NCBI GenBank assembly: GCA_964362795.1
Contig: CAYIFW010000001.1
Coordinates: forward strand, 14,483 to 68,165
Length of the DNA stretch: 53,683 nucleotides
Reading direction: 5' to 3'
From: an uncultured Planctomycetales bacterium
GTDB lineage: Bacteria > Omnitrophota > Gorgyraeia > Gygaellales > Profunditerraquicolaceae
The notes under the pieces were generated by a model. That model ran no database searches, was not told the origin of the DNA, and was given only the letters and a program-made list of their open reading frames with translations. The position numbers and the translations under genes were made by a program. Of this stretch, positions 405 through 19,738 are shown in pieces (the first letter of the stretch is position 1; each line of letters starts with the position of its first letter).

Positions 405-1808
405 TTAGAGGATACTTATTGCGGCTTGCTTAGCCATGCCCATAGCCTCGATAACCGTTCCTTCTCCGCCGACAATGTCCCCTCCGGCAAAAACATTTTT
501 AATTGAGGTCTCCATAGTCGCTAGATTAATTACGATATCTTTATATTTATCTGTCTTAAGCTCAGGGGTAACACTGCTTAGAAGCTGATTTGCCGCCAGG
601 CCAACGGCGATAATCGCCAGATCACAAGGGATACTAAAATCACTGCCCTCTAAAACAACCGGTTTTCTTCTGCCGGATTCATCCGCAGCTTTAAGCTCAC
701 AGATCAAACAATTTAGTTCTTTAACGAAACCTCGGTCATCAGAATGAAATTCTTGAGGTTGAGTAAGAAATTTAAACTTAATCCCCTCTTCTTGGGCATG
801 TTTGATCTCCAACCGGCGCGCCGGCATCTCGGTTAATGTCCGGCGGTAGATAATGGTAACATCAGATTTTATACCATTCATCTTTTGCAGGCGCAAAGCA
901 CAGCGCGCTGCATCGATCACGGTATTACCTCCTCCGACTACCAAAACATGTTGGCCGATATTTACCGGCGTATGATATTCGGGAAATTTATAGGCCGACA
1001 TAAGGTTTACCCGGGTCAAAAATTCATTCGCCGAATAAACATTGCAAAGATTTTCTCCTTTTATCCCTAAGAATGACGGCACTCCGGCACCAAGCCCTAA
1101 AAAAATCTTAGCAAATCCCTGCTGAAATAATTCATTTAAAGTAACGGCCTTGCCGACAATCGTATTGTTAAGAAACTCCACCCCTAACTTGGCTAAATAA
1201 TTAATCTCATAATCCAGGACCTCCCGCGGAAGGCGAAAATTCGGAATACCGTATCTTAAAACCCCGCCGCAACTTTGCAACCCCTCGAAAATAATTACCT
1301 TGGCTCCTTTTCTGGCTAATTCACCGGCGCAGCATAATCCTGCCGGGCCACTTCCGACCACCGCAACTTTAATCTGGGATAATTTGCTATCTTCTTCTAA
1401 AGAAACCTGCAAACCATTGCGTATTCCGTAGTCCCCGACAAATCTTTCTAAAAAATGAATATTAATTGCCTCATCCGAGCAATAAACGAGCTTACTTTTA
1501 TTCAACACACAAGCTTTGCGGCACTGATATTCCGCCGGGCAAACCCGGCCGCAAATAGCCGGAAAATTATTTCTTTGACGCAAAGTATTATAAGCGCCGG
1601 AAAAATCTTTTTTAGTAATCTGAAAAATAAATTTTTTAATATCAATACTTACCGGGCATCCTAAGACGCAGGCAGGATTTTTACATTGCAGACAACGGCC
1701 GGCCTCAAACAAGGCCTCCTGCTCTGAATATCCGGATATGACCTCCTGAAAACCTGCTATCCTTTTATCCGTCTCTAGCTCTTTTATTTTCACCGGCTCT
1801 TTAGGCAT
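405..1808 (-). CDS. NADPH-dependent glutamate-synthase-small-subunit-like oxidoreductase (NfnB / SudA / homotetrameric GltA family)
   Basis: 467 aa. N-terminal Fe-S motifs CLQCKNPACVLGCP and CGRVCPAEYQC, two dinucleotide folds (VVGSGPAGLCCA, VVGGGNTVIDAA), and C-terminal FAGGD. ATG at 1806-1808. Confidence 0.85.
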   Translation of the reverse strand: MPKEPVKIKELETDKRIAGFQEVISGYSEQEALFEAGRCLQCKNPACVLGCPVSIDIKKFIFQITKKDFSGAYNTLRQRNNFPAICGRVCPAEYQCRKACVLNKSKLVYCSDEAINIHFLERFVGDYGIRNGLQVSLEEDSKLSQIKVAVVGSGPAGLCCAGELARKGAKVIIFEGLQSCGGVLRYGIPNFRLPREVLDYEINYLAKLGVEFLNNTIVGKAVTLNELFQQGFAKIFLGLGAGVPSFLGIKGENLCNVYSANEFLTRVNLMSAYKFPEYHTPVNIGQHVLVVGGGNTVIDAARCALRLQKMNGIKSDVTIIYRRTLTEMPARRLEIKHAQEEGIKFKFLTQPQEFHSDDRGFVKELNCLICELKAADESGRRKPVVLEGSDFSIPCDLAIIAVGLAANQLLSSVTPELKTDKYKDIVINLATMETSIKNVFAGGDIVGGEGTVIEAMGMAKQAAISIL

Positions 1809-1812
1809 CGTC

Positions 1813-2658
1813 TTAAAATTTTATTTTACAGATATGCTTCTCTTTATCCGCATACATAGAATTCCTTTTTTCCAGTTCAACCCAATCGACTTGATCAGCC
1901 ATAAATTCCGGTCCGTCAACACAACTGAATTTTACCTTTCCACCCACAGTAACCCGGCAACAACCGCACATTCCCGTACCGTCAACCATCAAAGCATTCA
2001 ACGAAACAATCGTCTTAAGCTTAAAAGGAAGGCAGATTTGCGATACTTTCTTCATCATCGGAAGCGGCCCAACCGCATAAACTAGATCATATTTATCTTT
2101 TTTAAGAAGCTCATCCAGAATATCCGTGGTAAAACCTTTTTGCCCGCCTGAGCCGTCATCAGTAGCGATATAAAGCTTATCGGCTACATCTTTAAGCTCA
2201 TGTTCCAAGATCAATAATTCCTTGGTCTTAGATCCGATAATTATAGTAACATCATTACCTGCCTGTCCGGCAGGCAGGCCTGCCTGTTTTAAACTCTTGG
2301 CCACAGGATAAATTTCAGCAATTCCTACTCCTCCGCCGATTAGAATAACCCTGCCATAATCTTTTATCTCTGTAGCATGCCCCAAGGGGCCGACTAACGC
2401 ATATAAATTATCGCCAATGTTAAGATTACCTAAAATTCTCGTAGTTAACCCCACCTCTTGAAAAATAAGGGTTATCGTTTGCGCCTTTGGATCTGCCTCA
2501 ACAATAGTCAACGGAATCCTCTCGCCTATCTTACTAGCCATAACTACAACAAATTGGCCGGCCAAAGCCTTTTGACTGATTTGCGCCGAGCTTAGCAGTA
2601 ATTTTATAATCCTTACGCCGGCAAAATTAGAAATGATTTCTTTAGCGATAATTTTCAT
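1813..2658 (-). CDS. Ferredoxin-NADP reductase-like FAD/NAD(P)-binding 2Fe-2S subunit (NfnA / SudB / PyrK family)
   Basis: C-terminal 2Fe-2S motif DGTGMCGCCRV...FSCVDGPEF and GGGVG nucleotide fold. I chose the ATG at 2656-2658 (MKIIAKEI...) because the longer ORF to 2727 would overlap the HydG gene, whose stop is at 2660-2662. Confidence 0.8.
   Translation of the reverse strand: MKIIAKEIISNFAGVRIIKLLLSSAQISQKALAGQFVVVMASKIGERIPLTIVEADPKAQTITLIFQEVGLTTRILGNLNIGDNLYALVGPLGHATEIKDYGRVILIGGGVGIAEIYPVAKSLKQAGLPAGQAGNDVTIIIGSKTKELLILEHELKDVADKLYIATDDGSGGQKGFTTDILDELLKKDKYDLVYAVGPLPMMKKVSQICLPFKLKTIVSLNALMVDGTGMCGCCRVTVGGKVKFSCVDGPEFMADQVDWVELEKRNSMYADKEKHICKIKF
2258..2286. repeat. Small GC-rich palindrome inside the NfnA-like CDS
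   Basis: cctgcctg-tccgg-caggcagg-cctgcctg. It encodes the duplicated-looking peptide QAG-LPAGQAG in frame. Confidence 0.6.
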
Positions 2659-2659
2659 A

Positions 2660-4060
2660 TTAAACAAATTCGTCTCTAGAGCCATTCTCCACATGTTCGA
2701 AGATTTCTTGCAAAACTTCTCTATCATTCAGATTTAACTTACGGCTTAAATTATCGATAAGCTCCTGGCCGGATCTTTTTGTTCCCAGCGAAGCAAAATC
2801 ATCCAGATATTCCTGCAAGGTAATTAAAGCGTTTAAACTGCATTTTCCTTTTATTAATCCGGGTTTAGCTAATTTCATAAAAGCCTCCCCTGTCCTTTCT
2901 TTACGGTAACAGGCAGCGCAGAAACTGGGAACAAAACCTTTTTCAATCAACGCTGCAACAATTTCATCTAAGCTTCTCTGGTCGCCAAGAGAAAACTGCG
3001 CGGAATTATCCTGGTTATTGCCGCTAGAAGAATACCCCCCGGGTGAAGTACGGGATTCCGCGCTTATCTGCGAAACTCCATAAGCTAAAAGTTCATCGCG
3101 TAAAGAAGCGCTCTCCCGGGTAGACATAATTATCCCGGTATAAGGCACCGATAACCTTAATACGGCAACTAACTTCTTAAAATCCGCATCACTTAACTGA
3201 TGCGGAACTTTTTGTGAAAACTCCGCGCCAATTGCCGGTTCAATCCGGGGTACCGAAATAGTATGTGGCCCTACCTTAAATTTATTCTCTAAATATTCAA
3301 TATGGGAAAGCATGGCCAGGGTCTCAAATTTATAATCATAAAGTCCGTAAAGAACACCAATACCAAGGTCATCTATTCCGGCAACAAAAGCCCGGTCAAT
3401 GGCATCCATTCGATTATCCGGATCGCTCTTCGGGCCACTAGGATGCACCTGAGCATAAGTTCTCTCATGATACGTTTCCTGGAAAAGCTGATAAGTCCCG
3501 ATTCCGGCGGCTTTAAGCCTCTTAAATTCTACGCTGCTTAAAGGCGCGCAATTAACATTAACCCGCTTAATTTTATTACCCTTAAAATCCGCGGCATAAA
3601 TTGCATTAATACTTTCCAAATAATAATCAATACTACTTTTCCCCTCCGGGGCGCCTTCGGAAGAAACCATAAGTATGCGCTTATGTCCGCGCTCTAGAAG
3701 CCACTGGGTTTGCTGCTTAATTTCCTCGGTAGTTAAGGCCTTGCGCTTGAGTAATTTATTATCCGACTTAAAAGCGCAATAAGCGCAGTTGTTAGAACAA
3801 AAATTATTTATATAAAGCGGGGCAAATAAAACTACGCGCCGGCCGTAAATCTGTTCTTTAACGAAACTAGCCGCGGAGAATATCTTATCCAGATTATCAG
3901 TGTCTCCAGCATTAAGCAGAATTGCTGACTCCTCCAGTGTAAGCCTGGCTAAAGATTTACTTTTATTAATAATTTTGTCAATTTGGCAACTAGCAACGTT
4001 TAAAGAATCCGCCAATAAATTATTAATTTTTTCTGGATTAACTTGCTGCATCTTAGCCAA
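2660..4060 (-). CDS. hydG: Radical SAM tyrosine lyase HydG ([FeFe]-hydrogenase H-cluster maturase type)
   Basis: 466 aa. Radical SAM motif CSNNCAYC, plus the HydG-specific C-terminal CX2CX22C motif (CAACYRKERTGEAFMKLAKPGLIKGKC) that ThiH lacks. The track start at 4060 is a TTG; the first ATG is at 4049-4051. Confidence 0.85.
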   Translation of the reverse strand: MAKMQQVNPEKINNLLADSLNVASCQIDKIINKSKSLARLTLEESAILLNAGDTDNLDKIFSAASFVKEQIYGRRVVLFAPLYINNFCSNNCAYCAFKSDNKLLKRKALTTEEIKQQTQWLLERGHKRILMVSSEGAPEGKSSIDYYLESINAIYAADFKGNKIKRVNVNCAPLSSVEFKRLKAAGIGTYQLFQETYHERTYAQVHPSGPKSDPDNRMDAIDRAFVAGIDDLGIGVLYGLYDYKFETLAMLSHIEYLENKFKVGPHTISVPRIEPAIGAEFSQKVPHQLSDADFKKLVAVLRLSVPYTGIIMSTRESASLRDELLAYGVSQISAESRTSPGGYSSSGNNQDNSAQFSLGDQRSLDEIVAALIEKGFVPSFCAACYRKERTGEAFMKLAKPGLIKGKCSLNALITLQEYLDDFASLGTKRSGQELIDNLSRKLNLNDREVLQEIFEHVENGSRDEFV

Positions 4061-4061
4061 C

Positions 4062-4703
4062 TTATCTGCCTTTGGTCTTAATTAATACATTAACAAAATA
4101 AATCAGGTTCTCTAGCTCTACCTCAAGATTTACATTATTGATTACACAGTCATCATTGCCGCGCAGCTGTAGCGGCGCAAAATTTAATATACCTTTTATT
4201 CCTGCTGAAAGCATAACCTCGGCTACCTGCTGAGCCGCTGTGGCCGGCACGGTAATAATTCCCATTTTAATATTATTTTTACGCACAAACTCCGGTAACG
4301 CGCCTAAGGGCAAGATCAGCCCTTTTTCTTTAAGTTTTAATTTTGACGTATCAATATCAAACCCGGCGACAATCTTGATCCCTTCTTTTTCAAAACCCGT
4401 ATACTGCATCAACGCACTCCCCAGCTTGCCTAAACCGACGATTACCACCTTTTGCAGCTCATCTTTACCTAAAATAGTATTGATCTTTTCAATTAACTCA
4501 TCAATCTTATAACCGCCTCTTTTATTTCCGGATATATCAAATATGGAAAAATCTTTGCGCACCTGGGATGAAGTCACTTCTACCGCGTCAGCTAAGTTAT
4601 CCGAAAAAATACGCACAAACCCCAGCGATTTTAAGTGATAAAGCGCAGCTTTATATTTGGAAAGCCGCATAATGCAAAGTTTATTTGTTTTCATATTGCT
4701 CAT
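4062..4703 (-). CDS. rex: Redox-sensing transcriptional repressor Rex
   Basis: 213 aa. N-terminal winged-helix region (RLSKYKAALYHLK...SSQVRKDFS) followed by a Rossmann fold VVIVGLGKLGSAL. The start overlaps the upstream stop as TAATG at 4701-4705. Confidence 0.9.
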   Translation of the reverse strand: MSNMKTNKLCIMRLSKYKAALYHLKSLGFVRIFSDNLADAVEVTSSQVRKDFSIFDISGNKRGGYKIDELIEKINTILGKDELQKVVIVGLGKLGSALMQYTGFEKEGIKIVAGFDIDTSKLKLKEKGLILPLGALPEFVRKNNIKMGIITVPATAAQQVAEVMLSAGIKGILNFAPLQLRGNDDCVINNVNLEVELENLIYFVNVLIKTKGR

Positions 4704-6001
4704 TATATGCTCAAATCCGTAGGTGAACGCCCTAAAGACATTAAAAGCCCGATAGTATCATTAATTTGATCTTGAATGCTCTCACTTTCATGAGCGCGCC
4801 AAGGATAAAGATTATAAAATGGCCGGTATTTAAGCGGAGTTACATTAAGCATTACCGAATTTGCTCCGCTAATCAACGCCTCGTGCCTAGCCTCAGGATC
4901 AAGCGTTTCTAAGGCGGTAGTCACCAGTATCTTAGCCTGAACAACATCAATTATACGCGCCAGGGCGATTACCTTCAGCACAGTTTCAGCTAAGGCGGAT
5001 GGATGATTAGCCAGTGGTGTTTGCGGATGGCTGATAAACGGCCCAAAACTATACATTTCAGCATGCAATTCTTTAGCTAAAAGAATATCGTTTAAAAGAT
5101 CCTCTTGGCTTTGACCCGGCAGGCCGATCAGCCCGCCGGTAATAATCAGATAGCCCAATTCATATGCTTTTTTTAAGTGAGCAATCCGGCTAGCGAGCTC
5201 TTTTCCCGGGTTAACCTGTTGATAAAGCTCCGGGTTAGATGTTTCAAACCGCAAAAGTAATCCCCGGGCACCAGCGTCATAAAGAATTTTAAGATTATCT
5301 AACCCCACTTCGCCAAAACTGATAAAAATTAGCGCCGGCCAATTTGTTTTGATCTGACGGATAATTTGGGCCCGCTCCTCTATACTATAGCCGCAATCCT
5401 GGCCGGATTGTAAAACCAAAGTTTTAAAACCATGTTCCTGGATTGCAACTTTGGCCGCCTCCAGAATTTCTTCTTGGCTCATCCGGTAACGGGTAATATT
5501 TTTATTTTCTCCGGAGATGCCGCAAAAGGAACAAGCAGAATGGCAATAATTCGAAATCTCGATTATTCCGTGCACGCAGCAGGAATTTTTATGATGCTTC
5601 TGGCGTAAGAAATTGGCAGTCTTAAAAAGAAGCTTTAAAGCCGTTTTATCTTTCTCATTAATTAAAACTAAAAGTTCCTGACGGGTGAGCTCCCGGCCCT
5701 CTACAGCCTTATCCAGTATTTTTAAAAATTCTTGGGAAACAGATCCTGGATTAAGATCAAGGCGGGAAAGCTGAAGATCAACCTCCTGAAGCTCAAAAAA
5801 AGTTTCCTTCCAGACAGCCAGAATGCTTTTAGCCTCATCCAGCGGAATCTTTTGAATAGCAAAACCGCCCTGAGCATAGATATAGTCGCCTACGGACAAC
5901 CCCTCCAACTCATTATGGGCTTTTCTCTTTTCCCCAAAATAGTCCACCACCACGGTTTTCTCTTGAATACTTTCTATTTTTCCGGGAATGGCATAGCACA
6001 T
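4703..6001 (-). CDS. Fusion protein: N-terminal HypC/HupF-family domain plus a HydE/BioB-like radical SAM domain
   Basis: 432 aa. Residues 1 to about 70 (MCYAIPGKIESIQEKTVVVDYFGEKRKAHNELEGLSVGDYIYAQGGFAIQKIPLDEAKSIL) follow the HypC pattern, including the invariant Cys2. A CX3CX2C motif (CHSACSFCG) and a TIM-barrel-like body follow. Confidence 0.75.
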   Translation of the reverse strand: MCYAIPGKIESIQEKTVVVDYFGEKRKAHNELEGLSVGDYIYAQGGFAIQKIPLDEAKSILAVWKETFFELQEVDLQLSRLDLNPGSVSQEFLKILDKAVEGRELTRQELLVLINEKDKTALKLLFKTANFLRQKHHKNSCCVHGIIEISNYCHSACSFCGISGENKNITRYRMSQEEILEAAKVAIQEHGFKTLVLQSGQDCGYSIEERAQIIRQIKTNWPALIFISFGEVGLDNLKILYDAGARGLLLRFETSNPELYQQVNPGKELASRIAHLKKAYELGYLIITGGLIGLPGQSQEDLLNDILLAKELHAEMYSFGPFISHPQTPLANHPSALAETVLKVIALARIIDVVQAKILVTTALETLDPEARHEALISGANSVMLNVTPLKYRPFYNLYPWRAHESESIQDQINDTIGLLMSLGRSPTDLSI

Positions 6002-6015: not shown

Positions 6016-6261
6016 TTAGTCACAATCAAAAGAGACCAGGCGTAAAACACGCTGCTGCGGGATATTTTTTACACAAAATTGGGCATTCTCTAACGCTGTA
6101 TTCTTGGCTTTTTCTTTAAAGAAAAACTTCAAAGACTCCGCGTTAATTTCCGTAAATTCGCCTAATTCCAAAAATACCCGCGTTACCTTCTGGGCATTTT
6201 GTTGGCCGAGGTGCTTGATAATATCTTTAAACAAATCCTCAAGAAAATGCAGCTCATGCAT
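6016..6261 (-). CDS. Short HypA-like nickel metallochaperone lacking the zinc-finger domain
   Basis: 81 aa. It starts with MHE (the HypA Ni-binding N-terminus) and aligns by eye with the HypA core (KVTRVFLELGEFTEINAESLKFFF). No CxxC...CxxC zinc motif is present. The start overlaps the protease stop as ATGCATGA. Confidence 0.6.
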   Translation of the reverse strand: MHELHFLEDLFKDIIKHLGQQNAQKVTRVFLELGEFTEINAESLKFFFKEKAKNTALENAQFCVKNIPQQRVLRLVSFDCD

Positions 6262-6742
6262 CTTTAAACTCCGCGTTAATATGTTTAATCAATACGTCGG
6301 CGGCAGACTTGACTTCACCGCTCAACCCTTCCTGTTGGGCCACGCTTTGCGGTTGAATACCGATAAAATAAATCTGGGCCTGAGTGTCTTTCTGTAAAAT
6401 ATGGCTGACCACCGGTAACGGGATACTATGCGTACTCAAAGAAGCTTCCGGAATATGCTCAGAATCAATCAAGCGTAATTCTCCGGGGAAGCCGCCAAAA
6501 TCCGCAGCATCAATAAAAATAATCCTTTGAGGCAATAGCTTTACTGCCTGATCAATAATATTCTCCGGCCTTGATCCTGCGTCAATCACCGATAATTTAG
6601 AACTTTGCTTTAACCTTAAGGCTATATACGGGCCGACACCGTCATCGGCGCGAGAATAATTACCTACCGCAATAATCAGTATGCGCAAGTATTCTTGGGA
6701 AGTTAAAAGATTTGTAAAATTAGCGTCCAACAAATTTGACAT
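6254..6742 (-). CDS. [NiFe] hydrogenase maturation endopeptidase (HycI/HoxW/FrhD family)
   Basis: Motif ILIIAVGNYSRADDGVGPYIA, with a later H in the SLSTHSIPL region. The start is uncertain: ATG at 6742, ATG at 6778, or an internal TTG. It overlaps the large-subunit stop at 6720. Confidence 0.8.
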   Translation of the reverse strand: MSNLLDANFTNLLTSQEYLRILIIAVGNYSRADDGVGPYIALRLKQSSKLSVIDAGSRPENIIDQAVKLLPQRIIFIDAADFGGFPGELRLIDSEHIPEASLSTHSIPLPVVSHILQKDTQAQIYFIGIQPQSVAQQEGLSGEVKSAADVLIKHINAEFKDA

Positions 6743-8051
6743 TAAGGAAATGCGCGGAGCAGGAAATACACGGATCATAAGCGCGCACCAGCATCTCCAT
6801 CAAAAGAGTGATTTCTTCTTGGCTCTTATCCAGAATCTGGGGAACTAATGCGGCCATATCCAGTTCAATATTGCTTAAATTTTGCCCGGTAGGAATAATA
6901 CAATTAGCATTAATGATTTTACCTCGATCATCAATTTCATAGTTATGAAATAAAATTCCGCGGGGAACTTCCACCGCGCCAACGCCATTACCGGCGCGAA
7001 GAGCAATTGTGCCCTTTTCGTTAAGGCCAACGACGATCTCCTGGGAATAATCAACGCCTTTATCTTTAAGGTCTTCTAAAATCTCAATCGACTCTTCAAG
7101 GGAATGCACGCACTCAATCAACTGCGCCACGGTATTTAAATAAGGATTAGTCACAACCGGCTTCATCCCCAACGCCTGAGCTGCTTCTTTAGCTTTGGGA
7201 TGGAGCTTGTCATGATTAAGATTAAACCGCGCCAGCGCCCCAACCATATAAGACTGACGGCTAGCTTTAGTGTGCTTGGCACTGGAATGGCTAACCACAA
7301 ATTCATTAGTTAACTTAAGGTAATCTTTTTTATCCAGGCGCAATCCATCAGTTGAGCCTAAATCTCCGGAGAGCATCGGATATTCGCTCTGATCACTAAC
7401 TAAGCCTACATACTCGGTTGGACGGCTAAATTGCGGAAATTTAAAAGTTTTAGCTAACTCTAAAGTCTCCTGCATATCCCGACGCATATTGATCAAAATA
7501 TCCAGCATACGGTCTAGGTCTTTTTGGCGCGGCAGCTTAGTAAATCCTCCGACGATACAAGATATCGGATGCACGTGACGGCCGACCAGGATATCGCAAA
7601 CATCATTACATTCCTTTTTCATCCGCAAAGCCCGCCGCACAACCGTATTATGCGACTGAATCAAAGGAACAAAACTCTTGACCCCCAAAAGATCCGGAGC
7701 AATCAATAAATAGATATGTAAAATATGGCTATCTAGATTCTCCAGATGCAAAAGAAATTTACGCAACTTAATGGTTTGCTCGGAAGGAATAAAACCTAAA
7801 GCATCCTCGGCGGCTTGTATTGAAGCCAGGGTATGTCCGCAGGCGCATATACCGCAGATGCGGGAAGTAATATGCTGCGCCTCAAAGATGGAGCGGCCGC
7901 GTAACATCCCTTCGAAGAACCGCGGGCTCTCAACGATATCCAGGCGGCACTCCTGGAGCTTCCCGTCTTTAACATTGACCACAATATTACCGTGACCCTC
8001 TACGCGGGTCAAATATTCGACATTAACCTTTATGTTTTTGCTCATCGACAT
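6720..8051 (-). CDS. [NiFe] hydrogenase large (alpha) subunit, cytoplasmic group 3b type
   Basis: 443 aa. N-terminal RICGICACGH and C-terminal DPCISCSAH, followed by a 9-residue tail (FLNVKFVGR) that fits endopeptidase processing. TRVEGHG lies near the N-terminus. Confidence 0.9.
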   Translation of the reverse strand: MSMSKNIKVNVEYLTRVEGHGNIVVNVKDGKLQECRLDIVESPRFFEGMLRGRSIFEAQHITSRICGICACGHTLASIQAAEDALGFIPSEQTIKLRKFLLHLENLDSHILHIYLLIAPDLLGVKSFVPLIQSHNTVVRRALRMKKECNDVCDILVGRHVHPISCIVGGFTKLPRQKDLDRMLDILINMRRDMQETLELAKTFKFPQFSRPTEYVGLVSDQSEYPMLSGDLGSTDGLRLDKKDYLKLTNEFVVSHSSAKHTKASRQSYMVGALARFNLNHDKLHPKAKEAAQALGMKPVVTNPYLNTVAQLIECVHSLEESIEILEDLKDKGVDYSQEIVVGLNEKGTIALRAGNGVGAVEVPRGILFHNYEIDDRGKIINANCIIPTGQNLSNIELDMAALVPQILDKSQEEITLLMEMLVRAYDPCISCSAHFLNVKFVGR

Positions 8052-8784
8052 CCAGCTCCCGTGGCTTATTATACATATTCATTTTATTAGCAACCCAATC
8101 CAGAGAAATATTATATTTTTTTAAAATATCCGCTTGTCCGTTTTTTGCCGGATTACTCACCATCCCGCGGCAGCCATAACAAATATTGCCGTTATTAATA
8201 CACCAGGAATTACATCCGGCGCGGGTTACCGGGCCCAGGCAGCTGATCCCCTTATCATACATACAGACATTTTCATTAAAACGGCACTCCGTGCAAACCG
8301 CATAATCCGGCACAATATAAGCCAGGCCGGCTAAAGCGCACTTAAGCACCTTGACAAGTTCCGGTTGATAAACCGGACAACCGTGCACGAAATAATCAAC
8401 CTTAACTATTTGATGCAAAGGTTGCGTGGGTAGCGTTGAAAAATGTTTGGCATCATCTTTATAAACGTATTTCTTGATATCTTCCAGGTCAAAGTTGTTT
8501 TTCATCCCGTTGATTCCGCCGATAGTAGCGCAGGATCCATAAGCAATCAAAACTTTGGCTATCCCGCGAATTTTCTTAATTCTTTCTAGATCATGAGCGG
8601 TGGTAATGCTGCCTTCCACAATCGCTACGTCATAAACATCGCTTTTCTCGCTCATTACCTCCCGGAACATTACTACATCAATTGCGCCAAGGATATCCAA
8701 AAGCGCCTCTCCGAAATTCGCCACCTGTAACTGGCATCCTTCGCAACAAGAAAAATCAAAAAACGCAACCTTAGGTTTACTCAT
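8023..8784 (-). CDS. [NiFe] hydrogenase small (delta) subunit, NuoB-like
   Basis: 253 aa. N-terminal FFDFSCCEGCQ, GSCA and a Cys-rich distal part (CTEC...C, CNSWC...CYGC). Start/stop overlap TAATG at 8782-8786. Confidence 0.88.
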   Translation of the reverse strand: MSKPKVAFFDFSCCEGCQLQVANFGEALLDILGAIDVVMFREVMSEKSDVYDVAIVEGSITTAHDLERIKKIRGIAKVLIAYGSCATIGGINGMKNNFDLEDIKKYVYKDDAKHFSTLPTQPLHQIVKVDYFVHGCPVYQPELVKVLKCALAGLAYIVPDYAVCTECRFNENVCMYDKGISCLGPVTRAGCNSWCINNGNICYGCRGMVSNPAKNGQADILKKYNISLDWVANKMNMYNKPRELDVDEQKHKG

Positions 8785-9620
8785 TATAATGCCTCTGGAT
8801 TAGCTTTAATTTGATCATAAGAAAATACCGGGCCGTCTTTACAGCAATAATACTGGGCGATCTGGCAATGCCCGCACTTTCCAATACCGCACTTCATATG
8901 CCTCTCTAAAGAAACATAGATCTGATTCTCCGGAATCTCTTTTTTAAGAATTTCCACCAACACAAATTTATACATAATCGGAGGCCCCACAACTATCGCA
9001 AAAGTCTTCTTAGGATGCAGATCTATCCCGGGAATAAGCGAAGTAATCAGGCCGATATTGCCTTGCCAATCGGGATCAGCTTTATCAACCGTGCAGGAGA
9101 AGTTAACATCCATCCGCTCCTCCCAATTTTTAATCTCATCGGCAAAAAGAAAATCTTCCGGTTTCTTACAGCCAAGCAGGATGTGCGCTTTACCAAAATC
9201 CCGGCGGTTATCAATTACAAAATTAATCAGCGAACGTAAAGGAACGATTCCCAATCCTCCGGCAACAAAAAGCAAGTCATTTCCTTCTAAAACCTGCACC
9301 GGGAATCCTCTTCCAAAAGGGCCGCGAATCCCTAAAACATCTCCTGCCTTTAACTGATGCAAAGCATTGGTCACTCTACCGACATTACGCACCACTAACT
9401 CAAAATAACTGCGCTTAGTCGGCGAAGAAGATACGGATATCGGCGCTTCTCCGATACCCAAGAGAGATACCATCACAAATTGCCCCGGCTCATGGTCAAG
9501 GCTAAAACCACCATCCAGAGAAATCTTAAAATATTTCTCGTTAGCCGTCATCAGGCGCGCCTCAATGATTTTGGCCGGCATCACGATATATTCGGATTCT
9601 TTTAATTCAATACTTTTCAC
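8784..9620 (-). CDS. Hydrogenase gamma subunit, FAD/NAD(P)-binding oxidoreductase with 2Fe-2S (AsrB/PyrK-like)
   Basis: 278 aa. GGLGIVP nucleotide fold and C-terminal CGIGKCGHCQ...CCKDGPVF. GTG start at 9618-9620 overlaps the beta-subunit TGA (GTGA). Confidence 0.85.
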   Translation of the reverse strand: MKSIELKESEYIVMPAKIIEARLMTANEKYFKISLDGGFSLDHEPGQFVMVSLLGIGEAPISVSSSPTKRSYFELVVRNVGRVTNALHQLKAGDVLGIRGPFGRGFPVQVLEGNDLLFVAGGLGIVPLRSLINFVIDNRRDFGKAHILLGCKKPEDFLFADEIKNWEERMDVNFSCTVDKADPDWQGNIGLITSLIPGIDLHPKKTFAIVVGPPIMYKFVLVEILKKEIPENQIYVSLERHMKCGIGKCGHCQIAQYYCCKDGPVFSYDQIKANPEAL

Positions 9621-10653
9621 TTTATTTCCCTAGCTAGATCATTAATCGTTTCTTTAAGCGAAATATCCGCCATACAGGTACGCGAACATCTACCGCATCC
9701 TGTACAAAAATAACGGCTGTATTTATCCACCGGATACCTGAATTTACGCAAATAACGATGGCGCTGGCGCTGCCCGCGTTCTTGACGAAAGTTCTCGTTA
9801 CCGGCCACCTTAGCAAATGGCTCGCTCTGGCAGGAATCCCAACGGCGATAACGCAGGCCGCTGTTTAAATCAAGATTAGACTCATCAATAATATCAAAAC
9901 AATAACAAGTCGGACAGACATTGGTGCAATTCCCGCAAGCCAAACATCGCTTATCCAGCTCATCCCAGACTTTACTATGAAGCGCATGGCGGTTAAAAAG
10001 CTGCTTAATAGCGGGGTGGCGAACATTAACTTCGTTTTTAAAAATTTCCTGTTTTTAGCGCGCAATAACTCCAGAGATTTCAACGTTTGATCATCCGCTG
10101 CCTTAAGAACACCCGCCTTATCTACCAACTCATCTCCCAACATAGTGTTGATGTGCACGACAAAAGTATCTCCTAAATCAGTAAAAAACAAATCATATCC
10201 TCCGTTAGGAAGATGGTTATTTACAACATGACAAGAAGCATATTCATCGCAGTACTCATTACACTCCAAACCAATGATGGCAATCTTATTTTTGCGCACA
10301 ATATAATTAATATCTTTAGGTTTATCCGAAAAAACCATATTCAGGCATTGAATCCCGGCTAAATCACAGGTATGCACGCCGAAAATAACCATCTTTTCAT
10401 ATTCTAAAACAGCATTCAGCGAATTTTTCCCCTTATCATAAGCAGCTAAAGTTTCACCGGTAGGAAGAAAATATTTTTTTGGCGGTAGAATGGTGGGAAT
10501 ATACCTGATGGCGATATCTTTAGCGCTGGTAACATTCTGAAAAGAAAAGTTTTTATAACCCAGGCTAACTGGCGCGACAACCTTTTGCGTTTGCGCTAAA
10601 GAGCTAATAAACGCATCAAGATTTTCTTTTTTTAATACGGCGAATTGCTTCAT
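9617..10653 (-). pseudogene. Hydrogenase beta subunit (AsrA-like Fe-S protein) interrupted by a 1-nt frameshift. It is either a true pseudogene or a homopolymer sequencing error.
   Basis: ORFs 9865-10653 and 9617-9943 overlap in different frames. The 1037-nt span is not a multiple of 3. The frames meet at the T5 run 10052-10056 (coding strand GCT AAA AAC AGG). One extra A gives ...LELLRAKKQEIFKNEVNVRHPAIKQLFNRHALHSKVWDELDKRCLACGNCTNVCPTCYCF..., a continuous protein of about 345 aa. Confidence 0.8.
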
Positions 10654-10703
10654 AGATAAACCAATTCTCTTATAAGTTGATACAGGAACCTAAACCTATT
10701 ATG

Positions 10704-10721
10704 TTGTGAATAATATCACAA
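10704..10721. promoter_or_regulatory. Rex operator
   Basis: TTGTGAATAATATCACAA matches 13 of the 14 defined positions of the Rex consensus TTGTGAAnnnnTTCACAA. It sits 51-68 nt upstream of the hydrogenase operon start codon and overlaps the predicted -10. Confidence 0.7.
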
Positions 10722-10737
10722 AAATTAACTTTGTCAA
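10710..10737 (-). promoter_or_regulatory. Sigma70-type promoter of the hydrogenase/rex/hydG/nfn operon
   Basis: On the minus strand: TTGACA (10737-10732), a 16-nt spacer, then an extended -10 TGaTATTAT (10718-10710). Confidence 0.55.
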
Positions 10738-10811
10738 ACATTTTATTAAATTATTTTCCTAATCGAGAACCGGAGGTTTTCGCGAACTAATCCCGCTTAA
10801 TTAAATAATTA

Positions 10812-10840
10812 TTGATATTGACTATTTAAAGGTGTATACT
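10812..10840 (+). promoter_or_regulatory. Candidate sigma70 promoter of the divergent permease gene
   Basis: TTGATA (10812-10817), a 17-nt spacer, then TATACT (10835-10840), 63 nt upstream of the ATG at 10903. Confidence 0.4.
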
Positions 10841-10902
10841 TCTAAAATAATTATTACCGGGGGAAGTTCAATATCCGGACATTATCAAGAAAGAGATTTC
10901 GA

Positions 10903-12276: not shown

Positions 12277-12310
12277 TCATCAAATAATTTATTTTACTCA
12301 AACGGCGGTA

Positions 12311-13084
12311 TTACTGAGAGTAACTATGCAGGCCGGAAAACAAATAGCTGACCCCAAAATAGGTAAAAAGCATCGCCAGAAAACCTATCACCGACAACCA
12401 AGCTGCTTTTTTCCCTCTCCACCCCTTTCTTAGGCGAGCATGCAAATATATAGCATAAATAAACCAAGTAATTAATGACCAGGTTTCCTTAGGGTCCCAG
12501 CTCCAATAAGTGCCCCAGGCGGAATTGGCCCAGACCGATCCACTAATAATGCCTAAAGTTAAGAATAAGAAACCCAGGGCAATTAACTTATGACTAATAT
12601 TATCTAAATTCTGACTCGCCTCTTTTTTAAATAAAATAATCAAGCTGGCAACAAAAGCCACGGTTAAAGCGGCGTAGCCGATAAAACAGGTTAATACATG
12701 AAAGGTCAGCCAATTGCTTCTTAGGGCGGGCATCAGCGGAGCAATCTCTTTATCTAATAACGCAGCGTATCCTAAGGCCAATAAACCCATTAAAGCCGTT
12801 AGAGCATTAATCACCTTAATCTTATATTTTAAATCCATGAAAATAATAAAAACAGCAATCGCCCAGGCAAATACGACTAAGGACTCAAACATATTGCTTA
12901 GCGGAGGCCGCAGGGCAGCCTGCCAGCGAATGCCGATATGAATCGAAAGCCCCAGAGCCGCACAAATGATAAAAAATCTCGCCAGAATCGAAAATATTTT
13001 ATTTTTAAAAAACAGGCTTCCCGCGTAGAAAATCATGGACGCAAAATAAACTCCGAAACTAAAATTAAGATACGCTACAGACAT
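12311..13084 (-). CDS. ccsA: Cytochrome c biogenesis System II haem-handling protein CcsA/ResC
   Basis: 257 aa membrane protein with the WWD-type motif WGTYWSWDPKETW and flanking histidines. Confidence 0.9.
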   Translation of the reverse strand: MSVAYLNFSFGVYFASMIFYAGSLFFKNKIFSILARFFIICAALGLSIHIGIRWQAALRPPLSNMFESLVVFAWAIAVFIIFMDLKYKIKVINALTALMGLLALGYAALLDKEIAPLMPALRSNWLTFHVLTCFIGYAALTVAFVASLIILFKKEASQNLDNISHKLIALGFLFLTLGIISGSVWANSAWGTYWSWDPKETWSLITWFIYAIYLHARLRKGWRGKKAAWLSVIGFLAMLFTYFGVSYLFSGLHSYSQ

Positions 13085-13088
13085 AGTT

Positions 13089-14123: not shown

Positions 14124-14139
14124 GCTCTTTTTTAGGAAT

Positions 14140-14168: not shown

Positions 14169-14180
14169 ATAATAGTTTTA

Positions 14181-14711: not shown

Positions 14712-14730
14712 CTTTATCCTCCCGCCGTTT

Positions 14731-17290: not shown

Positions 17291-17292
17291 TT

Positions 17293-19731: not shown

Positions 19732-19738
19732 ATTTTTT

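What the first reader, a model, noticed from the sequence alone, without database searches (positions are those of the whole stretch)
4703..6001. HypC ([NiFe] maturation chaperone) domain fused to a HydE/BioB-like radical SAM enzyme
Seen:
- The first 70 or so residues (MCYAIPGKIESI...VVVDYFGEKRKAHNELEGLSVGDYIYAQGGFAIQKI...EA) fit the HypC/HupF pattern, including the essential Cys2.
- They continue without a stop into a radical SAM protein of about 350 aa (CHSACSFCG; overall HydE/BioB/PylB-like layout).
- The gene lies between the mini-HypA gene and rex, inside the [NiFe] hydrogenase operon, one gene away from hydG.

Established knowledge: HypC (with HypD) carries the Fe(CN)2CO unit destined for the [NiFe] large subunit. 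HydG makes an Fe(CO)2(CN)-cysteine synthon, and HydE processes that synthon for [FeFe] hydrogenases. The source of CO for [NiFe] sites in strict anaerobes is still unresolved.

Inference (speculative): this fusion, together with the adjacent HydG, could be a non-canonical route. In it, radical-SAM chemistry of the [FeFe]-maturase type would supply or remodel the Fe-CO/CN unit on a HypC scaffold for a [NiFe] enzyme. No hypD, hypE, hypF, hypB, hydF or [FeFe] hydA gene is in the window.
Basis: partly seen in the sequence, partly recalled or inferred. Interest (0 to 1): 0.8.

Follow-up and report, generated by a model that had tools for sequence, protein, structure and literature searches.

The report
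HypC–HydE fusion in NiFe-hydrogenase operons
A single gene joins the iron-carrier protein of nickel-iron hydrogenase assembly (HypC) to a diverged copy of a radical enzyme known only from iron-iron hydrogenase assembly (HydE); it sits in nickel-iron hydrogenase operons next to the CO/cyanide-making enzyme HydG in many uncultured bacteria and archaea, so it may show how strict anaerobes make the CO ligand of nickel-iron hydrogenases.

Summary
Window 4703-6001 (-) is one intact 432-aa ORF: a HypC/HupF domain (Pfam 53.6 bits, Cys2 kept) followed by a HydE-type radical SAM TIM barrel (44% identical to T. maritima HydE). The same protein is found on 13 contigs from more than one assembly.

The fusion is not a local oddity. 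It defines a family of thousands of proteins in Omnitrophota, Atribacterota (including cultured Caldatribacterium inferamans), Margulisiibacteriota, Brevinematales, Patescibacteria and DPANN archaea.

- **Synteny:** 62 of 74 loci with enough upstream sequence have a [NiFe] hydrogenase (group 3b, 4 or 1) and/or the HycI protease upstream on the same strand.
- **HydG:** it lies immediately downstream in 37 of 68 loci, and HypC-HydE-HydG triple fusions exist.
- **Paralogy:** several genomes also carry canonical HydE, HydG and sometimes HydF beside an [FeFe] hydrogenase.
- **Sequence signature:** the complex-B pocket is conserved, but residues I assign to the S3 exit site (T134, R54, R155) are F/H/G, with a new invariant Cys-x-His.
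- **Hyp genes:** no HypD, HypE or HypF lies within 10 kb in any locus.

Most likely this is a [NiFe]-dedicated maturase that uses HydG chemistry. That is inferred, not shown. I could not make a genome-wide hypDEF inventory.

The parts
4703..6001 (-). HypC-HydE fusion gene (432 aa), the finding itself
   Evidence: ORF; Pfam PF01455 plus PF04055; HydE TIGR03956 at 242.6 bits; AF2 pLDDT 92.1 and pTM 0.91; identical protein on 13 contigs from more than one assembly.
5810..6001 (-). HypC/HupF domain, residues 1-64. MCYAIPG N-terminus with Cys2. The His conserved in HypC (E. coli His51, aligned in all four PDB HypC sequences) is Gln44 here.
   Evidence: Pfam match to residues 1-64; alignments to PDB HypC 2z1c, 3vyr, 3d3r and 2ot2; M1, C2 and P6 at 90% or more in alignments A1/A2; beta strands 7-52 in the model.
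5722..5809 (-). Linker, residues 65-93. It continues the long helix 54-79 that follows the HypC barrel. The W64-K65-E66-x-F68-F69 motif is conserved in the Omnitrophota-type subfamily.
   Evidence: Secondary structure of the model; invariant and near-invariant columns of A3.
4706..5721 (-). HydE-type radical SAM TIM-barrel domain, residues 94-432. CX3CX2C at C153/C157/C160. Clade-specific C142-x-H144. No auxiliary-cluster cysteines.
   Evidence: phmmer against TmHydE; Foldseek; residue comparison of 35 fused and 104 canonical HydE sequences.
6016..6261 (-). Mini-HypA (81 aa). Has the MHE nickel-binding N-terminus and lacks the zinc-finger half.
   Evidence: Pfam HypA profile positions 1-70 of 112; the same ~80-aa form in 40 loci, only 2 of them with a CxxC motif.
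6254..6778 (-). HycI-type hydrogenase maturation endopeptidase
   Evidence: TIGR00072 at 110.6 bits and TIGR00142 at 110.1 bits; a HycI homologue lies within 1.5 kb upstream of the fusion in 54 of 74 loci.
6720..8051 (-). [NiFe] hydrogenase large subunit of group 3b type, the presumed client of the maturase
   Evidence: NiFeSe_Hases; best NCBIfam match is sulfhydrogenase HydA/ShyA; motifs RICGICACGH and DPCISCSAH plus a C-terminal extension.
8023..8784 (-). [NiFe] hydrogenase small (delta) subunit
   Evidence: Oxidored_q6; sulfhyd_HydD/ShyD.
8784..9620 (-). Hydrogenase gamma subunit (FAD/NAD(P)-binding)
   Evidence: FAD_binding_6, NAD_binding_1 and DHODB_Fe-S_bind; PRK08345 at 282.8 bits.
9617..10653 (-). 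Hydrogenase beta subunit (Fer4_22). In this window it is split by one frameshift near 10027-10054.
   Evidence: tblastn against the intact L006 homologue; intact 345-aa ORF in L092-L094.
4062..4703 (-). Rex redox-sensing repressor. Its start codon overlaps the fusion's stop codon by one base.
   Evidence: NF003996 at 233.9 bits; sequence; Rex directly downstream of the fusion in 26 of 65 loci.
2660..4060 (-). HydG, the tyrosine lyase that makes CO, CN- and the Fe(Cys)(CO)2(CN) synthon. Proposed partner and substrate supplier.
   Evidence: TIGR03955 at 492.6 bits against a cut-off of 312; CX3CX2C and a C-terminal CX2CX22C starting at residue 381; HydG within 1.5 kb downstream of the fusion in 37 of 68 loci; triple fusions P0122, P0129 and L071.
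405..2727 (-). NfnAB/SudAB-like pair (ferredoxin:NADP oxidoreductase type) at the end of the same gene string. Probably a metabolic partner of the hydrogenase, not part of the maturation module.
   Evidence: PRK06222 at 338.5 bits and gltA TIGR01316 at 502 bits; the same pair follows HydG in many loci.

Best explanation
The gene encodes a dedicated [NiFe]-hydrogenase maturation factor that couples [FeFe]-type radical SAM chemistry to HypC-type iron delivery.

Proposed mechanism:
1. HydG, encoded next door or fused, cleaves tyrosine and builds the Fe(II)(cysteinate)(CO)2(CN) synthon (complex B).
2. The HydE-like barrel of the fusion binds this synthon in its conserved upper pocket and uses the 5'-deoxyadenosyl radical to strip the cysteine backbone, as canonical HydE does.
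3. Canonical HydE passes the product to its S3 site for dimerisation and hand-off to HydF. In the fusion, I propose that the remodelled lower cavity (invariant Cys142-x-His144, with the positions I assign to the S3 Thr and two Arg replaced) holds a mononuclear Fe-carbonyl-cyanide unit.
4. That unit passes to Cys2 of the tethered HypC domain.
5. The HypC domain docks on the apo large subunit and inserts the iron unit.
6. Mini-HypA supplies nickel and HycI trims the C-terminus.

Shown: the architecture, the synteny, the paralogy with canonical HydE, and the residue pattern.

Inferred: the substrate, the transfer to Cys2, the [NiFe] client, the assignment of T134, R54 and R155 to the S3 site, and whether HypD, HypE and HypF are bypassed or still needed for the second cyanide.
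For: Reality and breadth of the fusion:
- The best 120 homologues and the best 80 genome loci are all fused, apart from two loci cut by contig ends.
- About 20 clusters at 50% identity are fused.
- A second profile search finds fused members in DPANN archaea, Patescibacteria and Nitrospirota.

Synteny with [NiFe] hydrogenases:
- 62 of 74 loci with at least 3 kb of upstream sequence have a [NiFe] large subunit and/or HycI upstream on the same strand.
- The hydrogenases belong to three unrelated operon types: group 3b (52 loci), membrane-bound group 4 (14 loci, Pfam-checked) and a group 1-like type (L059).
- The usual order is hydrogenase, HycI, mini-HypA, fusion.
- The fusion supplies the only HypC-like sequence in these loci.

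Link to HydG:
- HydG lies within 1.5 kb downstream in 37 of 68 loci and somewhere in the locus in 46 of 68.
- Archaea carry a bare two-gene fusion + HydG module.
- HypC-HydE-HydG triple fusions exist: P0122, P0129 and L071, the last in a complete chromosome.

The fusion is not the organism's ordinary HydE:
- L033 also carries HydF, HydG and a canonical HydE scoring 359.6 bits.
- L036 carries a canonical HydE scoring 330.7 bits beside its [FeFe] hydrogenase. The fused HydE domain of the window protein scores 242.6 bits and is about 36% identical to these canonical copies.
- The fused HydE domains form one clade in a neighbour-joining tree (bootstrap 65/100), and the canonical copies of the same genomes fall outside it.

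Residue pattern:
- Conserved in both groups: C63/C67/C70, Q107, R159 (K or R), E161, R180, M224, T268, T269, N288 and M291. M224 and M291 are the residues reported to relay the Fe(CO)2CN species (PMC10114646).
- Replaced in the fused clade: T134 to F, R54 to H (100%), R155 to G (86%), and H52 to C (100%).
[quoted passage not shown] It does not name them; I assign them to T134, R54 and R155.

Absence of Hyp genes nearby:
- tblastn with E. coli HypD, HypE and HypF finds nothing in 84 loci plus the window, although HycI (62 loci), HypA (27) and HypC (72) are found.
- L090 has HypA, HypB, the hydrogenase, HycI, a putative metal transporter and the fusion in one string, yet no HypD, HypE or HypF.

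Possible HydF decay:
- L019 keeps HydG next to the fusion with only an 85-aa fragment resembling the HydF C-terminus.

Literature:
- The origin of CO in anaerobic [NiFe] maturation is called the most pressing open question, and no radical SAM route is mentioned (PMC12134894).
Against: - No experiment bears on the function; everything rests on guilt by association and sequence patterns.
- HydG's synthon carries two CO and one CN, whereas the [NiFe] site needs one CO and two CN. A ligand exchange or a second cyanide source must be assumed.
- The His conserved in HypC is missing (Gln44), so iron handling by this domain may differ from that of HypC.
- Ten loci have an [FeFe] hydrogenase within 10 kb. 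Atribacteria generally have both hydrogenase types (PMC11227167). An [FeFe]-related role therefore cannot be excluded by co-occurrence.
- At least one Omnitrophota genome has hypA, hypC, hypD, hypE and hypF (Seymour 2023 source data). Absence of Hyp genes from the flanks is not absence from the genome.
- The archaeal and Patescibacteria loci show no hydrogenase within 10 kb.
- Support for the fused clade is moderate (65/100, neighbour-joining only). Two apparently unfused sequences (P0145, P0212) carry the same C-x-H signature.
- Assigning the S3 residues to T134, R54 and R155 combines my own recollection of the TmHydE structure papers with the review's unnamed 'threonine and two arginines'.
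Confidence: 0.5

Rival explanations
1. Bifunctional fusion of two independent maturases. The HypC domain works with canonical HypD, HypE and HypF encoded elsewhere for the [NiFe] enzyme. The HydE domain works with HydG and HydF for an [FeFe] enzyme. The two were joined only because hydrogenase genes are co-regulated.
For: - Ten loci have an [FeFe] HydA cluster 3-8 kb downstream, under the same Rex/histidine-kinase region.
- Atribacteria usually encode both 3b [NiFe] and A3 [FeFe] hydrogenases.
- Several fused members pass the HydE equivalog cut-off: P0124, P0135, P0136, P0139 and P0140.
- HypDEF exist in at least one Omnitrophota genome.
Against: - Genomes with the [FeFe] cluster keep a separate canonical HydE next to HydG or HydF (L033, L036, and truncated copies in L013, L017 and L020). 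The fused copy is therefore redundant for that role.
- The fused clade has lost the conserved Thr and two Arg that I assign to the S3 site, the site reported to matter for [FeFe] maturation.
- Most loci have a [NiFe] hydrogenase but no [FeFe] genes nearby, and HydG then sits directly after the fusion.
- Ace Lake Omnitrophota MAGs each have a single hydrogenase type.
Confidence: 0.15
2. A CO-donor (or Fe-CO donor) accessory to the canonical pathway. HydG and the fusion provide only the carbonyl-bearing iron. HypD, HypE and HypF, encoded elsewhere, still add the two cyanides on a HypC-HypD scaffold in which the fused HypC domain takes part. This differs from the best explanation only in that HypDEF are not bypassed.
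For: - It solves the ligand-stoichiometry problem.
- HypDEF occur in at least one Omnitrophota genome that also has Mrp genes.
- Cys2 and the HypC fold are retained.
- HypA and HypB are present in L090, L049 and L059.
Against: - HypD, HypE and HypF are never within 10 kb in any of the loci examined, even where HypA, HypB, HycI and a putative transporter are clustered with the fusion.
- The HypC C-terminal helix, which moves on HypD during ATP-triggered transfer, is built into the linker of the fusion.
- The His conserved in HypC is lost.
Confidence: 0.2
3. An alternative [FeFe] (or other iron-carbonyl cofactor) maturation route in which the HypC-like domain replaces HydF as carrier, for example in archaea that have [FeFe] hydrogenases but lack HydEFG. 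The [NiFe] linkage in bacteria would then be regulatory.
For: - Archaeal loci carry the fusion + HydG as an isolated pair, without HydF or a nearby [NiFe] hydrogenase.
- Most archaea with [FeFe] hydrogenases lack the standard maturases, and an alternative pathway has been postulated (PMC11216029).
Against: - In bacteria the gene sits between HycI/mini-HypA and the end of [NiFe] operons of three different groups.
- HypC proteins are known only as partners of [NiFe] large subunits (established knowledge).
- The same survey found only eight archaeal [FeFe]-hydrogenase genomes with any HydE, HydF or HydG, whereas fused proteins are common in DPANN MAGs.
Confidence: 0.08

Closest known systems
HydE, [FeFe]-hydrogenase H-cluster radical SAM maturase (TIGR03956; T. 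maritima HydE, PDB 3cix/7o1o)
   Same: - Same fold: target-normalised TM 0.92, rmsd 2.0 A.
- 38-44% identity.
- CX3CX2C motif and conserved upper-pocket residues: Q107, R159, E161, M224, T268, T269, M291.
- Always accompanied by HydG.
   Different: - Carries an N-terminal HypC domain.
- Forms a separate clade.
- The window protein scores below the equivalog cut-off, 242.6 against 254.6.
- The positions I assign to the S3 exit site (T134, R54, R155) are F, H and G, and a new invariant Cys-x-His appears.
- No auxiliary-cluster cysteines.
- Encoded in [NiFe] rather than [FeFe] operons, and coexists with a canonical HydE.
HypC/HybG/HupF family [NiFe] chaperones (PF01455; T. kodakarensis HypC 2z1c, E. 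coli HypC)
   Same: - MC-x-x-x-P-G N-terminus with Cys2.
- Beta-barrel followed by a helix.
- Position in a [NiFe] operon next to the protease and HypA.
   Different: - Not a free ~80-aa protein; it is tethered to a 340-aa enzyme.
- The conserved His (E. coli His51) is Gln, Thr, Tyr or Ala.
- Below the TIGR00074 cut-off, 42 against 48.
- No HypD gene nearby.
Other maturase fusions: HydEF of Chlamydomonas (from my own knowledge) and the HydE-HydG fusion found here (P0142)
   Same: Consecutive maturases of one pathway joined in one polypeptide. P0142 is a HydE-HydG fusion, and P0122, P0129 and L071 are HypC-HydE-HydG fusions.
   Different: Those fusions stay within the [FeFe] pathway. This one joins components of two pathways that are regarded as separate.
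HypX, the aerobic CO source for [NiFe] hydrogenases (from formyl-tetrahydrofolate)
   Same: It would fill the same gap: enzymatic supply of the carbonyl ligand for [NiFe] cofactor assembly.
   Different: Unrelated fold and chemistry. HypX works under oxic conditions, whereas this system is found in strict anaerobes and would take CO from tyrosine through HydG.
HcgA/HmdB (TIGR03957), the radical SAM enzyme of [Fe]-hydrogenase FeGP cofactor synthesis
   Same: Belongs to the same BioB/HydE/PylB branch of radical SAM enzymes and is dedicated to a hydrogenase cofactor.
   Different: A much weaker match, 88.7 bits against 242.6 for HydE. No Hmd or hcg genes are in the context.

Membership tests
HypC/HybG/HupF | Profile match above the curated threshold | tested here: inconclusive
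   Pfam PF01455 is passed: 53.6 bits against 28.5. NCBIfam TIGR00074 is not: 42 bits against 48. Some other fused members pass it, e.g. P0136 at 57.7 and P0135 at 53.7.
HypC/HybG/HupF | N-terminal Met-Cys, with Cys2 as the iron ligand after Met removal, in the motif MC(L/I/V)(G/A)(L/I/V)P | tested here: met
   The protein starts MCYAIPG. The ATG is the first start after an in-frame stop. M1, C2 and P6 are conserved at 90% or more across 16-18 diverse fused proteins and are invariant in 58 closer ones.
HypC/HybG/HupF | Conserved histidine in the 'vHvGFA' strand (E. coli His51) | tested here: not met
   It aligns to Gln44 ('YAQGGFA') against all four PDB HypC sequences, which have His. Other fused members have Q, T, Y or A.
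HypC/HybG/HupF | Small beta-barrel followed by a C-terminal helix | tested here: met
   The AF2 model has strands at 7-13, 16-21, 24-29, 40-44 and 47-52, then a helix at 54-79, with pLDDT 83-95. The fold of this domain was not compared separately with HypC structures.
HypC/HybG/HupF | Forms a complex with HypD and with the apo large subunit | not testable with these tools
   No hypD lies within 10 kb in any locus. Presence elsewhere in the genome is unknown.
HydE (TIGR03956) | Equivalog profile score above the cut-off | tested here: not met
   242.6 bits against 254.6 for the window protein. Five other fused members pass at 258-283 bits. Canonical HydE copies from fusion-bearing genomes score 331-360.
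HydE (TIGR03956) | Radical SAM CX3CX2C cluster motif and a full (beta-alpha)8 barrel like TmHydE | tested here: met
   C153/C157/C160 align with Tm C63/C67/C70. Foldseek gives target-normalised TM 0.92 and rmsd 2.0 A to 3cix.
HydE (TIGR03956) | Upper-pocket and relay residues around the complex-B site (Q107, R/K159, E161, M224, T268, T269, M291) | tested here: met
   All are conserved at 89-100% in 35 fused sequences and in 104 canonical HydE sequences. The roles of M224 and M291 come from PMC10114646; the roles of the other residues are from my own recollection.
HydE (TIGR03956) | S3 exit site with a conserved threonine and two arginines, needed for [FeFe] maturation | tested here: not met
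   T134 is F (83%), R54 is H (100%) and R155 is G (86%) in the fused clade, whereas the canonical residues are 90-92% conserved in standalone HydE. The site is described in PMC10114646. The residue numbers are my assignment.
HydE (TIGR03956) | Genomic association with hydA, hydF and hydG | tested here: inconclusive
   HydG is in the locus in 46 of 68 cases. HydA is within 10 kb in only 10 loci. A full HydF C-terminal domain is seen in 1 locus (L033) and an 85-aa fragment in 1 (L019).
HydG (the neighbouring gene, 2660-4060) | Equivalog score, CX3CX2C, and the C-terminal CX2CX22C that holds the auxiliary cluster with the dangler iron | tested here: met
   TIGR03955 scores 492.6 bits against 312.15. 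Both motifs are present, the C-terminal one being CAACYRKERTGEAFMKLAKPGLIKGKC starting at residue 381.
Group 3b [NiFe] hydrogenase (the operon) | Four-subunit alpha/beta/gamma/delta layout and large-subunit motifs RxCGxCxxxH and DPCxxCxxH | tested here: met
   The beta-subunit gene is frameshifted in this window but intact in other assemblies. No formal HydDB classification was run.

The most novel reading that the evidence does not exclude
HydG, the HypC-HydE fusion, mini-HypA and HycI together form a compact, self-sufficient [NiFe]-hydrogenase maturation pathway that needs no HypD, HypE or HypF.

Both the CO and the CN ligands of the [NiFe] site would come from tyrosine through HydG. The HydE-like domain would convert the synthon to a mononuclear Fe(CO)(CN)x unit at its Cys-x-His site. 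The fused HypC would insert that unit.

This would be the long-sought anaerobic CO route, at least for Omnitrophota, Atribacterota, Margulisiibacteriota, CPR bacteria and DPANN archaea. It would also mean that the [FeFe] and [NiFe] maturation machineries are not independent inventions.
Probability: 0.3. Interest if true: 0.95.

Novelty: new variant of a known kind. Interest (0 to 1): 0.82.

Why it matters
[NiFe] and [FeFe] hydrogenases are textbook examples of convergent evolution. Each has its own maturation machinery: HypA-F for the first, HydE/F/G for the second. [quoted passage not shown]

A widespread protein family that physically joins the [NiFe] iron carrier to a specialised HydE paralogue, always partnered with the CO/CN-producing HydG and embedded in [NiFe] operons, gives a concrete and testable candidate for that route.

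- It would explain why HydG and HydE homologues occur in organisms or operons without [FeFe] hydrogenases.
- It would correct the automatic annotations this family currently receives ('[FeFe] hydrogenase maturase HydE', 'biotin synthase', 'HypC family chaperone').
- It could simplify heterologous production of [NiFe] hydrogenases.
- A cultured carrier is now available for experiments: Caldatribacterium inferamans SIUC1, DSM 110249.

Tried and rejected
**Assembly or annotation artefact: rejected.** The identical protein is on 13 contigs from more than one assembly, and the best 120 homologues and best 80 genome loci are all fused.

**Wrong start codon hiding Cys2: rejected.** An in-frame TGA lies 18 nt upstream, with no other start between it and the ATG.

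**The radical SAM domain is BioB, PylB, ThiH or HmdB rather than HydE: rejected.** The score gaps are large (242.6 against 137, 95, 60 and 89 bits) and the fold matches HydE.

**Genes downstream of HydG in the group-4 loci might be hypBDEF: rejected.** By my reading of the representative sequences (no family search was run on them) they look like an aldo-keto reductase, an epimerase, a HAD hydrolase, a nuclease, an M48 peptidase, glycyl-tRNA synthetase and pyruvate phosphate dikinase.

**Search for Hyp and HydF genes in the loci.** Motif searches for HypB, HypD, HypE, HypF and HydF found only one HydF. tblastn with the E. coli proteins then confirmed this more rigorously.

**Genome-wide inventory of hypDEF, hydF and hydA: failed.**
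- The Caldatribacterium and archaeal-hydrogenase papers have no supplements held as text.
- The Seymour 2023 annotation table is truncated to a few genomes. It shows only that genome 231 has hypA, hypC, hypD, hypE and hypF and that two others have HydE, HydF and HydG.

**Literature search for any description of the fusion or of a HydG/HydE link to [NiFe]: nothing found.** Six of the ten full-text searches were aimed at this.

**Inter-domain geometry.** The structure model gave confidence values but no coordinates, so the distance from Cys2 to the S3 site could not be measured.

**HydG variation.** A variant C-terminal cysteine motif in 19 of 45 HydG sequences is not specific to the fusion context. 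L033's HydG, which sits with HydF and a canonical HydE, has it too.

Full report
**1. The observation**

Window 4703-6001 on the minus strand is a single 432-aa ORF beginning MCYAIPGK. An in-frame TGA lies 18 nt upstream of the ATG and no other start codon lies between them, so Cys is residue 2.

Family and structure matches:
- Pfam finds HupF_HypC over residues 1-64 (53.6 bits, gathering score 28.5) and Radical_SAM over residues 147-306.
- NCBIfam ranks HydE (TIGR03956) first at 242.6 bits over residues 96-403. This is just under the 254.6 cut-off but far ahead of PylB (137), BioB (95) and HmdB (89). hypC_hupF scores 42 bits against a cut-off of 48.
- Against the PDB, residues 94-427 align with T. 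maritima HydE (E = 5e-64) and residues 1-67 with T. kodakarensis HypC (E = 1e-8).
- An AlphaFold2 model is confident throughout (pLDDT 92.1, pTM 0.91). It shows a small beta-barrel (residues 7-52), a long helix (54-79) and a (beta-alpha)8 barrel. The closest solved structure is TmHydE, with target-normalised TM 0.92 and rmsd 2.0 A.

The identical protein was read on 13 contigs, and the places shown come from different assemblies of Hainich groundwater data, so the ORF is not split in the reads.

**2. The surroundings in the window**

The gene lies in a tightly packed minus-strand string:
- 3b-type [NiFe] hydrogenase beta, gamma, delta and alpha subunits (10653-6720);
- HycI protease (6778-6254);
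- an 81-aa HypA that keeps the MHE nickel motif but lacks the zinc domain (6261-6016);
- the fusion;
- Rex, whose start codon overlaps the fusion's stop codon by one base;
- HydG (4060-2660), scoring 492.6 bits on TIGR03955 and carrying both CX3CX2C and the C-terminal CX2CX22C;
- an NfnAB-like pair.

The large subunit has the normal RxCGxCxxxH and DPCxxCxxH motifs.

The rest of the window encodes cytochrome c maturation, haem synthesis, Rnf, glutamine and glutamate synthases, and a HydB/HydC-like cluster. The 'HydA' of that cluster is only a 214-aa N-terminal FeS module. tblastn with E. coli HypA-F and with HydA, HydF and canonical HydE from related loci finds no HypB, HypD, HypE, HypF, HydF, H-cluster domain or second HydE in the window.

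**3. How widespread the fusion is**

- A word-indexed search found 3092 relatives, and the best 120 (61-100% identity) all carry both Pfam domains.
- An exhaustive search of 50%-identity representatives found about 20 fused clusters, with identity down to 36-41%. Standalone HydE sequences follow.
- Two representatives of 906 and 881 aa are HypC-HydE-HydG triple fusions, and one of 803 aa is a HydE-HydG fusion.
- A scan of one genome per GTDB species found 482 relatives. The best 80 are all fused, apart from two cut by contig ends. They come from Omnitrophota (most), Saganbacteria/WOR-1, Margulisiibacteriota, Brevinematales/Spirochaetota, Auribacterota, Planctomycetia-labelled MAGs and Atribacterota. 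The last group includes the complete genome of Caldatribacterium inferamans SIUC1, a cultured H2-producing fermenter.
- A profile of the most divergent fused members retrieved 3729 further proteins. The best 120 are again all fused and include sequences from Aenigm-, Alti-, Nano- and Micrarchaeota, Patescibacteria and Nitrospirota.

**4. Gene neighbourhood census**

I called ORFs in all fetched loci, clustered them, and checked the key clusters with tblastn and Pfam.

*Upstream.* Of 74 loci with at least 3 kb upstream, 62 have a [NiFe] large subunit and/or HycI upstream on the same strand. The hydrogenases are of three kinds:
- cytoplasmic group 3b (52 loci);
- membrane-bound, complex-I-like group 4 with Mrp subunits (14 loci);
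- a group 1-like enzyme (L059).

The recurring order is [structural genes], HycI, mini-HypA, fusion, (Rex), HydG.

*Downstream.* HydG lies within 1.5 kb downstream in 37 of 68 loci with enough sequence, and somewhere in the locus in 46 of 68. In L071, a complete Omnitrophota chromosome, HydG is fused to the gene itself, giving a 921-aa protein. Four archaeal loci carry the fusion and HydG as an isolated two-gene module.

*Hyp genes.* No free HypC-like ORF exists in any locus; the fusion supplies the only HypC. E. coli HypD, HypE and HypF find nothing in 84 loci plus the window, whereas HycI (62 loci), HypA (27) and HypC (72) are found. L090 is telling. It has HypA, HypB, four 3b subunits, HycI, a His-rich DsbD_2-like membrane protein and the fusion in one string, with no HypD, HypE or HypF.

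**5. The fusion is a paralogue, not the cell's ordinary HydE**

Ten loci have an A3-type [FeFe] hydrogenase cluster a few kb downstream. In these, HydG sits after the [FeFe] genes, followed by a standalone HydE in the five loci whose sequence extends that far.
- L036's standalone HydE scores 330.7 bits on TIGR03956.
- L033 has a HydF C-terminal fragment, HydG and a 359.6-bit HydE just upstream of its 3b hydrogenase, HycI, mini-HypA and the fusion.

These canonical copies are only about 36% identical to the HydE domain of the window's fusion. In a neighbour-joining tree of 142 HydE domains, all 35 fused sequences form one clade together with four sequences lacking the HypC domain. Two of those four are probably fragments; two (P0145, P0212) appear to be genuinely unfused. 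Bootstrap support is moderate at 65/100. The canonical copies from L033 and L036 fall among ordinary HydE sequences.

**6. What changed in the barrel**

I aligned 35 fused and 104 canonical sequences with TmHydE. The numbering was validated by the position of C63, C67 and C70.

Conserved in both groups: the cluster cysteines, Q107, R/K159, E161, R180, M224, T268, T269, N288 and M291. M224 and M291 are the residues seen binding or relaying the Fe(CO)2CN species in TmHydE crystals (PMC10114646).

Strongly different:

| TmHydE position | Canonical HydE | Fused clade |
|---|---|---|
| 52 | H, 41% | C, 100% |
| 54 | R, 91% | H, 100% |
| 134 | T, 90% | F, 83% |
| 155 | R, 92% | G, 86% |
| 195 | G, 96% | A or I |
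| 266 | P, 86% | L, 80% |
| 289 | V, 90% | S, 91% |

[quoted passage not shown] Mutating one of them impairs maturation. The site sits at the proposed exit towards HydF, and a new iron species was observed there. I infer, partly from memory of the original structure papers, that these residues are T134, R54 and R155.

If so, the fused clade keeps the substrate pocket and the methionine relay. It has replaced the HydF-directed exit site with a Cys-x-His pair, which are typical metal ligands.

**7. The HypC domain**

The N-terminal MC-x-x-x-P(G/A) motif is conserved across the whole family. Current work shows that Cys2 of HypC carries the Fe(CN)2CO group and inserts it into the large subunit (PMC11565642).

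The histidine conserved in free HypC proteins (E. coli His51) is Gln44 here and varies in other fused members. This domain may therefore handle iron differently from canonical HypC. From my own knowledge, His51 has been implicated in Fe/CO2 binding.

**8. Interpretation**

The most economical reading has four parts.
- The protein is a [NiFe]-dedicated maturase.
- It takes HydG's Fe(Cys)(CO)2(CN) synthon into a HydE-like active site.
- It performs HydE-type radical chemistry.
- It hands a mononuclear Fe-carbonyl-cyanide unit to its own HypC domain for insertion into the large subunit. Mini-HypA and HycI then complete maturation.

The architecture, synteny, paralogy and residue pattern are shown. 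The substrate, the transfer and the client are inferred. I put this at about 0.5.

Open problems:
- The ligand stoichiometry differs: HydG's product has 2 CO and 1 CN, the [NiFe] site has 1 CO and 2 CN.
- Whether HypD, HypE and HypF are dispensable is unknown. One Omnitrophota genome in published source data has hypA, hypC, hypD, hypE and hypF, so I cannot claim that they are absent genome-wide.
- The archaeal and Patescibacteria loci show no hydrogenase nearby.

Rival readings are listed separately with probabilities: an independent bifunctional fusion, a CO donor to a canonical HypCDEF pathway, and an alternative [FeFe] route.

**9. Comparison with what is known, and novelty**

The two domains belong to well-known families. 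The fused protein fails one defining feature of each: the HypC histidine, and the residues I assign to the HydE S3 site. The window protein also scores under both NCBIfam cut-offs.

Ten full-text searches, six of them aimed at this question, and a 2025 review of [NiFe] cofactor biosynthesis turned up no description of the fusion or of any HydG/HydE involvement in [NiFe] maturation. The review names the anaerobic origin of CO as the main open question. Database names for family members are inconsistent: 'radical SAM protein', 'HydE', 'biotin synthase', 'HypC family chaperone'.

I classify it as a new variant of known kinds with high interest. If the self-sufficient pathway is real, it would be a categorically new maturation route.

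**10. Limits**

- There are no whole-genome inventories.
- The tree is neighbour-joining only.
- ORFs in the loci were called by a simple greedy method, and only the key clusters were cross-checked with tblastn and Pfam.
- MAG taxonomic labels are as deposited. Some, such as 'Falkowbacteria' and 'Gammaproteobacteria', may be mis-binned.
- The structure model gave no coordinates for measuring inter-domain distances.

Noticed in passing
window 6016-6261 (-); cluster of ~80-aa ORFs in 40 loci, e.g. L084 9747-9989: A 'mini-HypA' of about 80 aa. It keeps the MHE nickel-binding N-terminus and matches HypA profile positions 1-70 of 112, but it lacks the CxxC zinc-finger domain (only 2 of 40 have a CxxC). 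It is conserved directly upstream of the fusion. A few loci (L049, L090) have a full-length HypA plus HypB instead.
   Followed up: partly
window 9617-10653 (-), shift near 10027-10054: The hydrogenase beta-subunit gene is split into 262-aa and 108-aa ORFs by one frameshift. Both halves are about 78% identical to the intact L006 protein. Other assemblies of the same organism (L092-L094) have an intact 345-aa ORF, so this is probably an assembly error or a strain variant.
   Followed up: yes
window 29639-36163 (-): A HydB/HydC-like (NuoF/NuoE-type) gene set with histidine-kinase-type ATPase, PHP, DRTGG and CBS genes, typical of [FeFe] hydrogenase clusters. The 'HydA' is only a 214-aa Fer2_4 + 2x[4Fe-4S] module (34% identical to residues 5-207 of L001 HydA). 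It has no H-cluster domain and is followed directly by a UbiA prenyltransferase. It could be a decayed or repurposed [FeFe] hydrogenase locus.
   Followed up: partly
L019 12757-13014 (+): An 85-aa ORF between HydG and the NfnA-like gene is homologous to the last ~80 residues of HydF (48% identical to L033 HydF), with HCxxC changed to SCWGC. It looks like a remnant of HydF in a locus that keeps HydG and the fusion next to a 3b [NiFe] hydrogenase.
   Followed up: partly
L071 10001-12766 (+) (CP070797.1); proteins P0122, P0129, P0142: Triple fusions HypC-HydE-HydG of 881-921 aa, one of them directly after a group-4 hydrogenase, HycI and mini-HypA in a complete Omnitrophota chromosome. There is also a HydE-HydG fusion without a HypC domain (803 aa).
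   Followed up: partly
19 HydG genes in loci such as L033 597-2114, L084 11970-13466, L074 11308-12807: These HydG sequences carry a variant C-terminal cysteine pattern, FCTAGYRCGRTG(K/E)C followed by 15 residues and a further Cys, instead of the canonical CX2CX22C. They still score well above the HydG cut-off (L033: 464 bits). The variant also occurs in the HydG that sits with HydF and a canonical HydE, so it is not specific to the fusion context.
   Followed up: partly
L036 4560-5273 (+); also L027, L028, L056, L057; L090 9353-9997: A His-rich, multi-pass DsbD_2-like membrane protein of about 215-240 aa, with a loop HTHSHFHLDGNKHMHEHTHKGEHVHVH. It recurs beside the hydrogenase/fusion genes and is probably a nickel or other metal transporter.
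   Followed up: no
L086, L087, L089, L091 (DPANN-type archaeal contigs), genes at 10001-12700: In archaea the fusion and HydG form an isolated two-gene module with no hydrogenase, Hyp or HydF gene within 10 kb. Which enzyme they serve there is unknown.
   Followed up: partly
window 12311-27682 (-): A long block for cytochrome c biogenesis (ResB/CcsA-type), multihaem cytochromes, and haem synthesis by the sirohaem route (NirD/L-like decarboxylase pair and three radical SAM genes). This is unexpected company for a fermentative-looking hydrogenase operon in an Omnitrophota genome.
   Followed up: no
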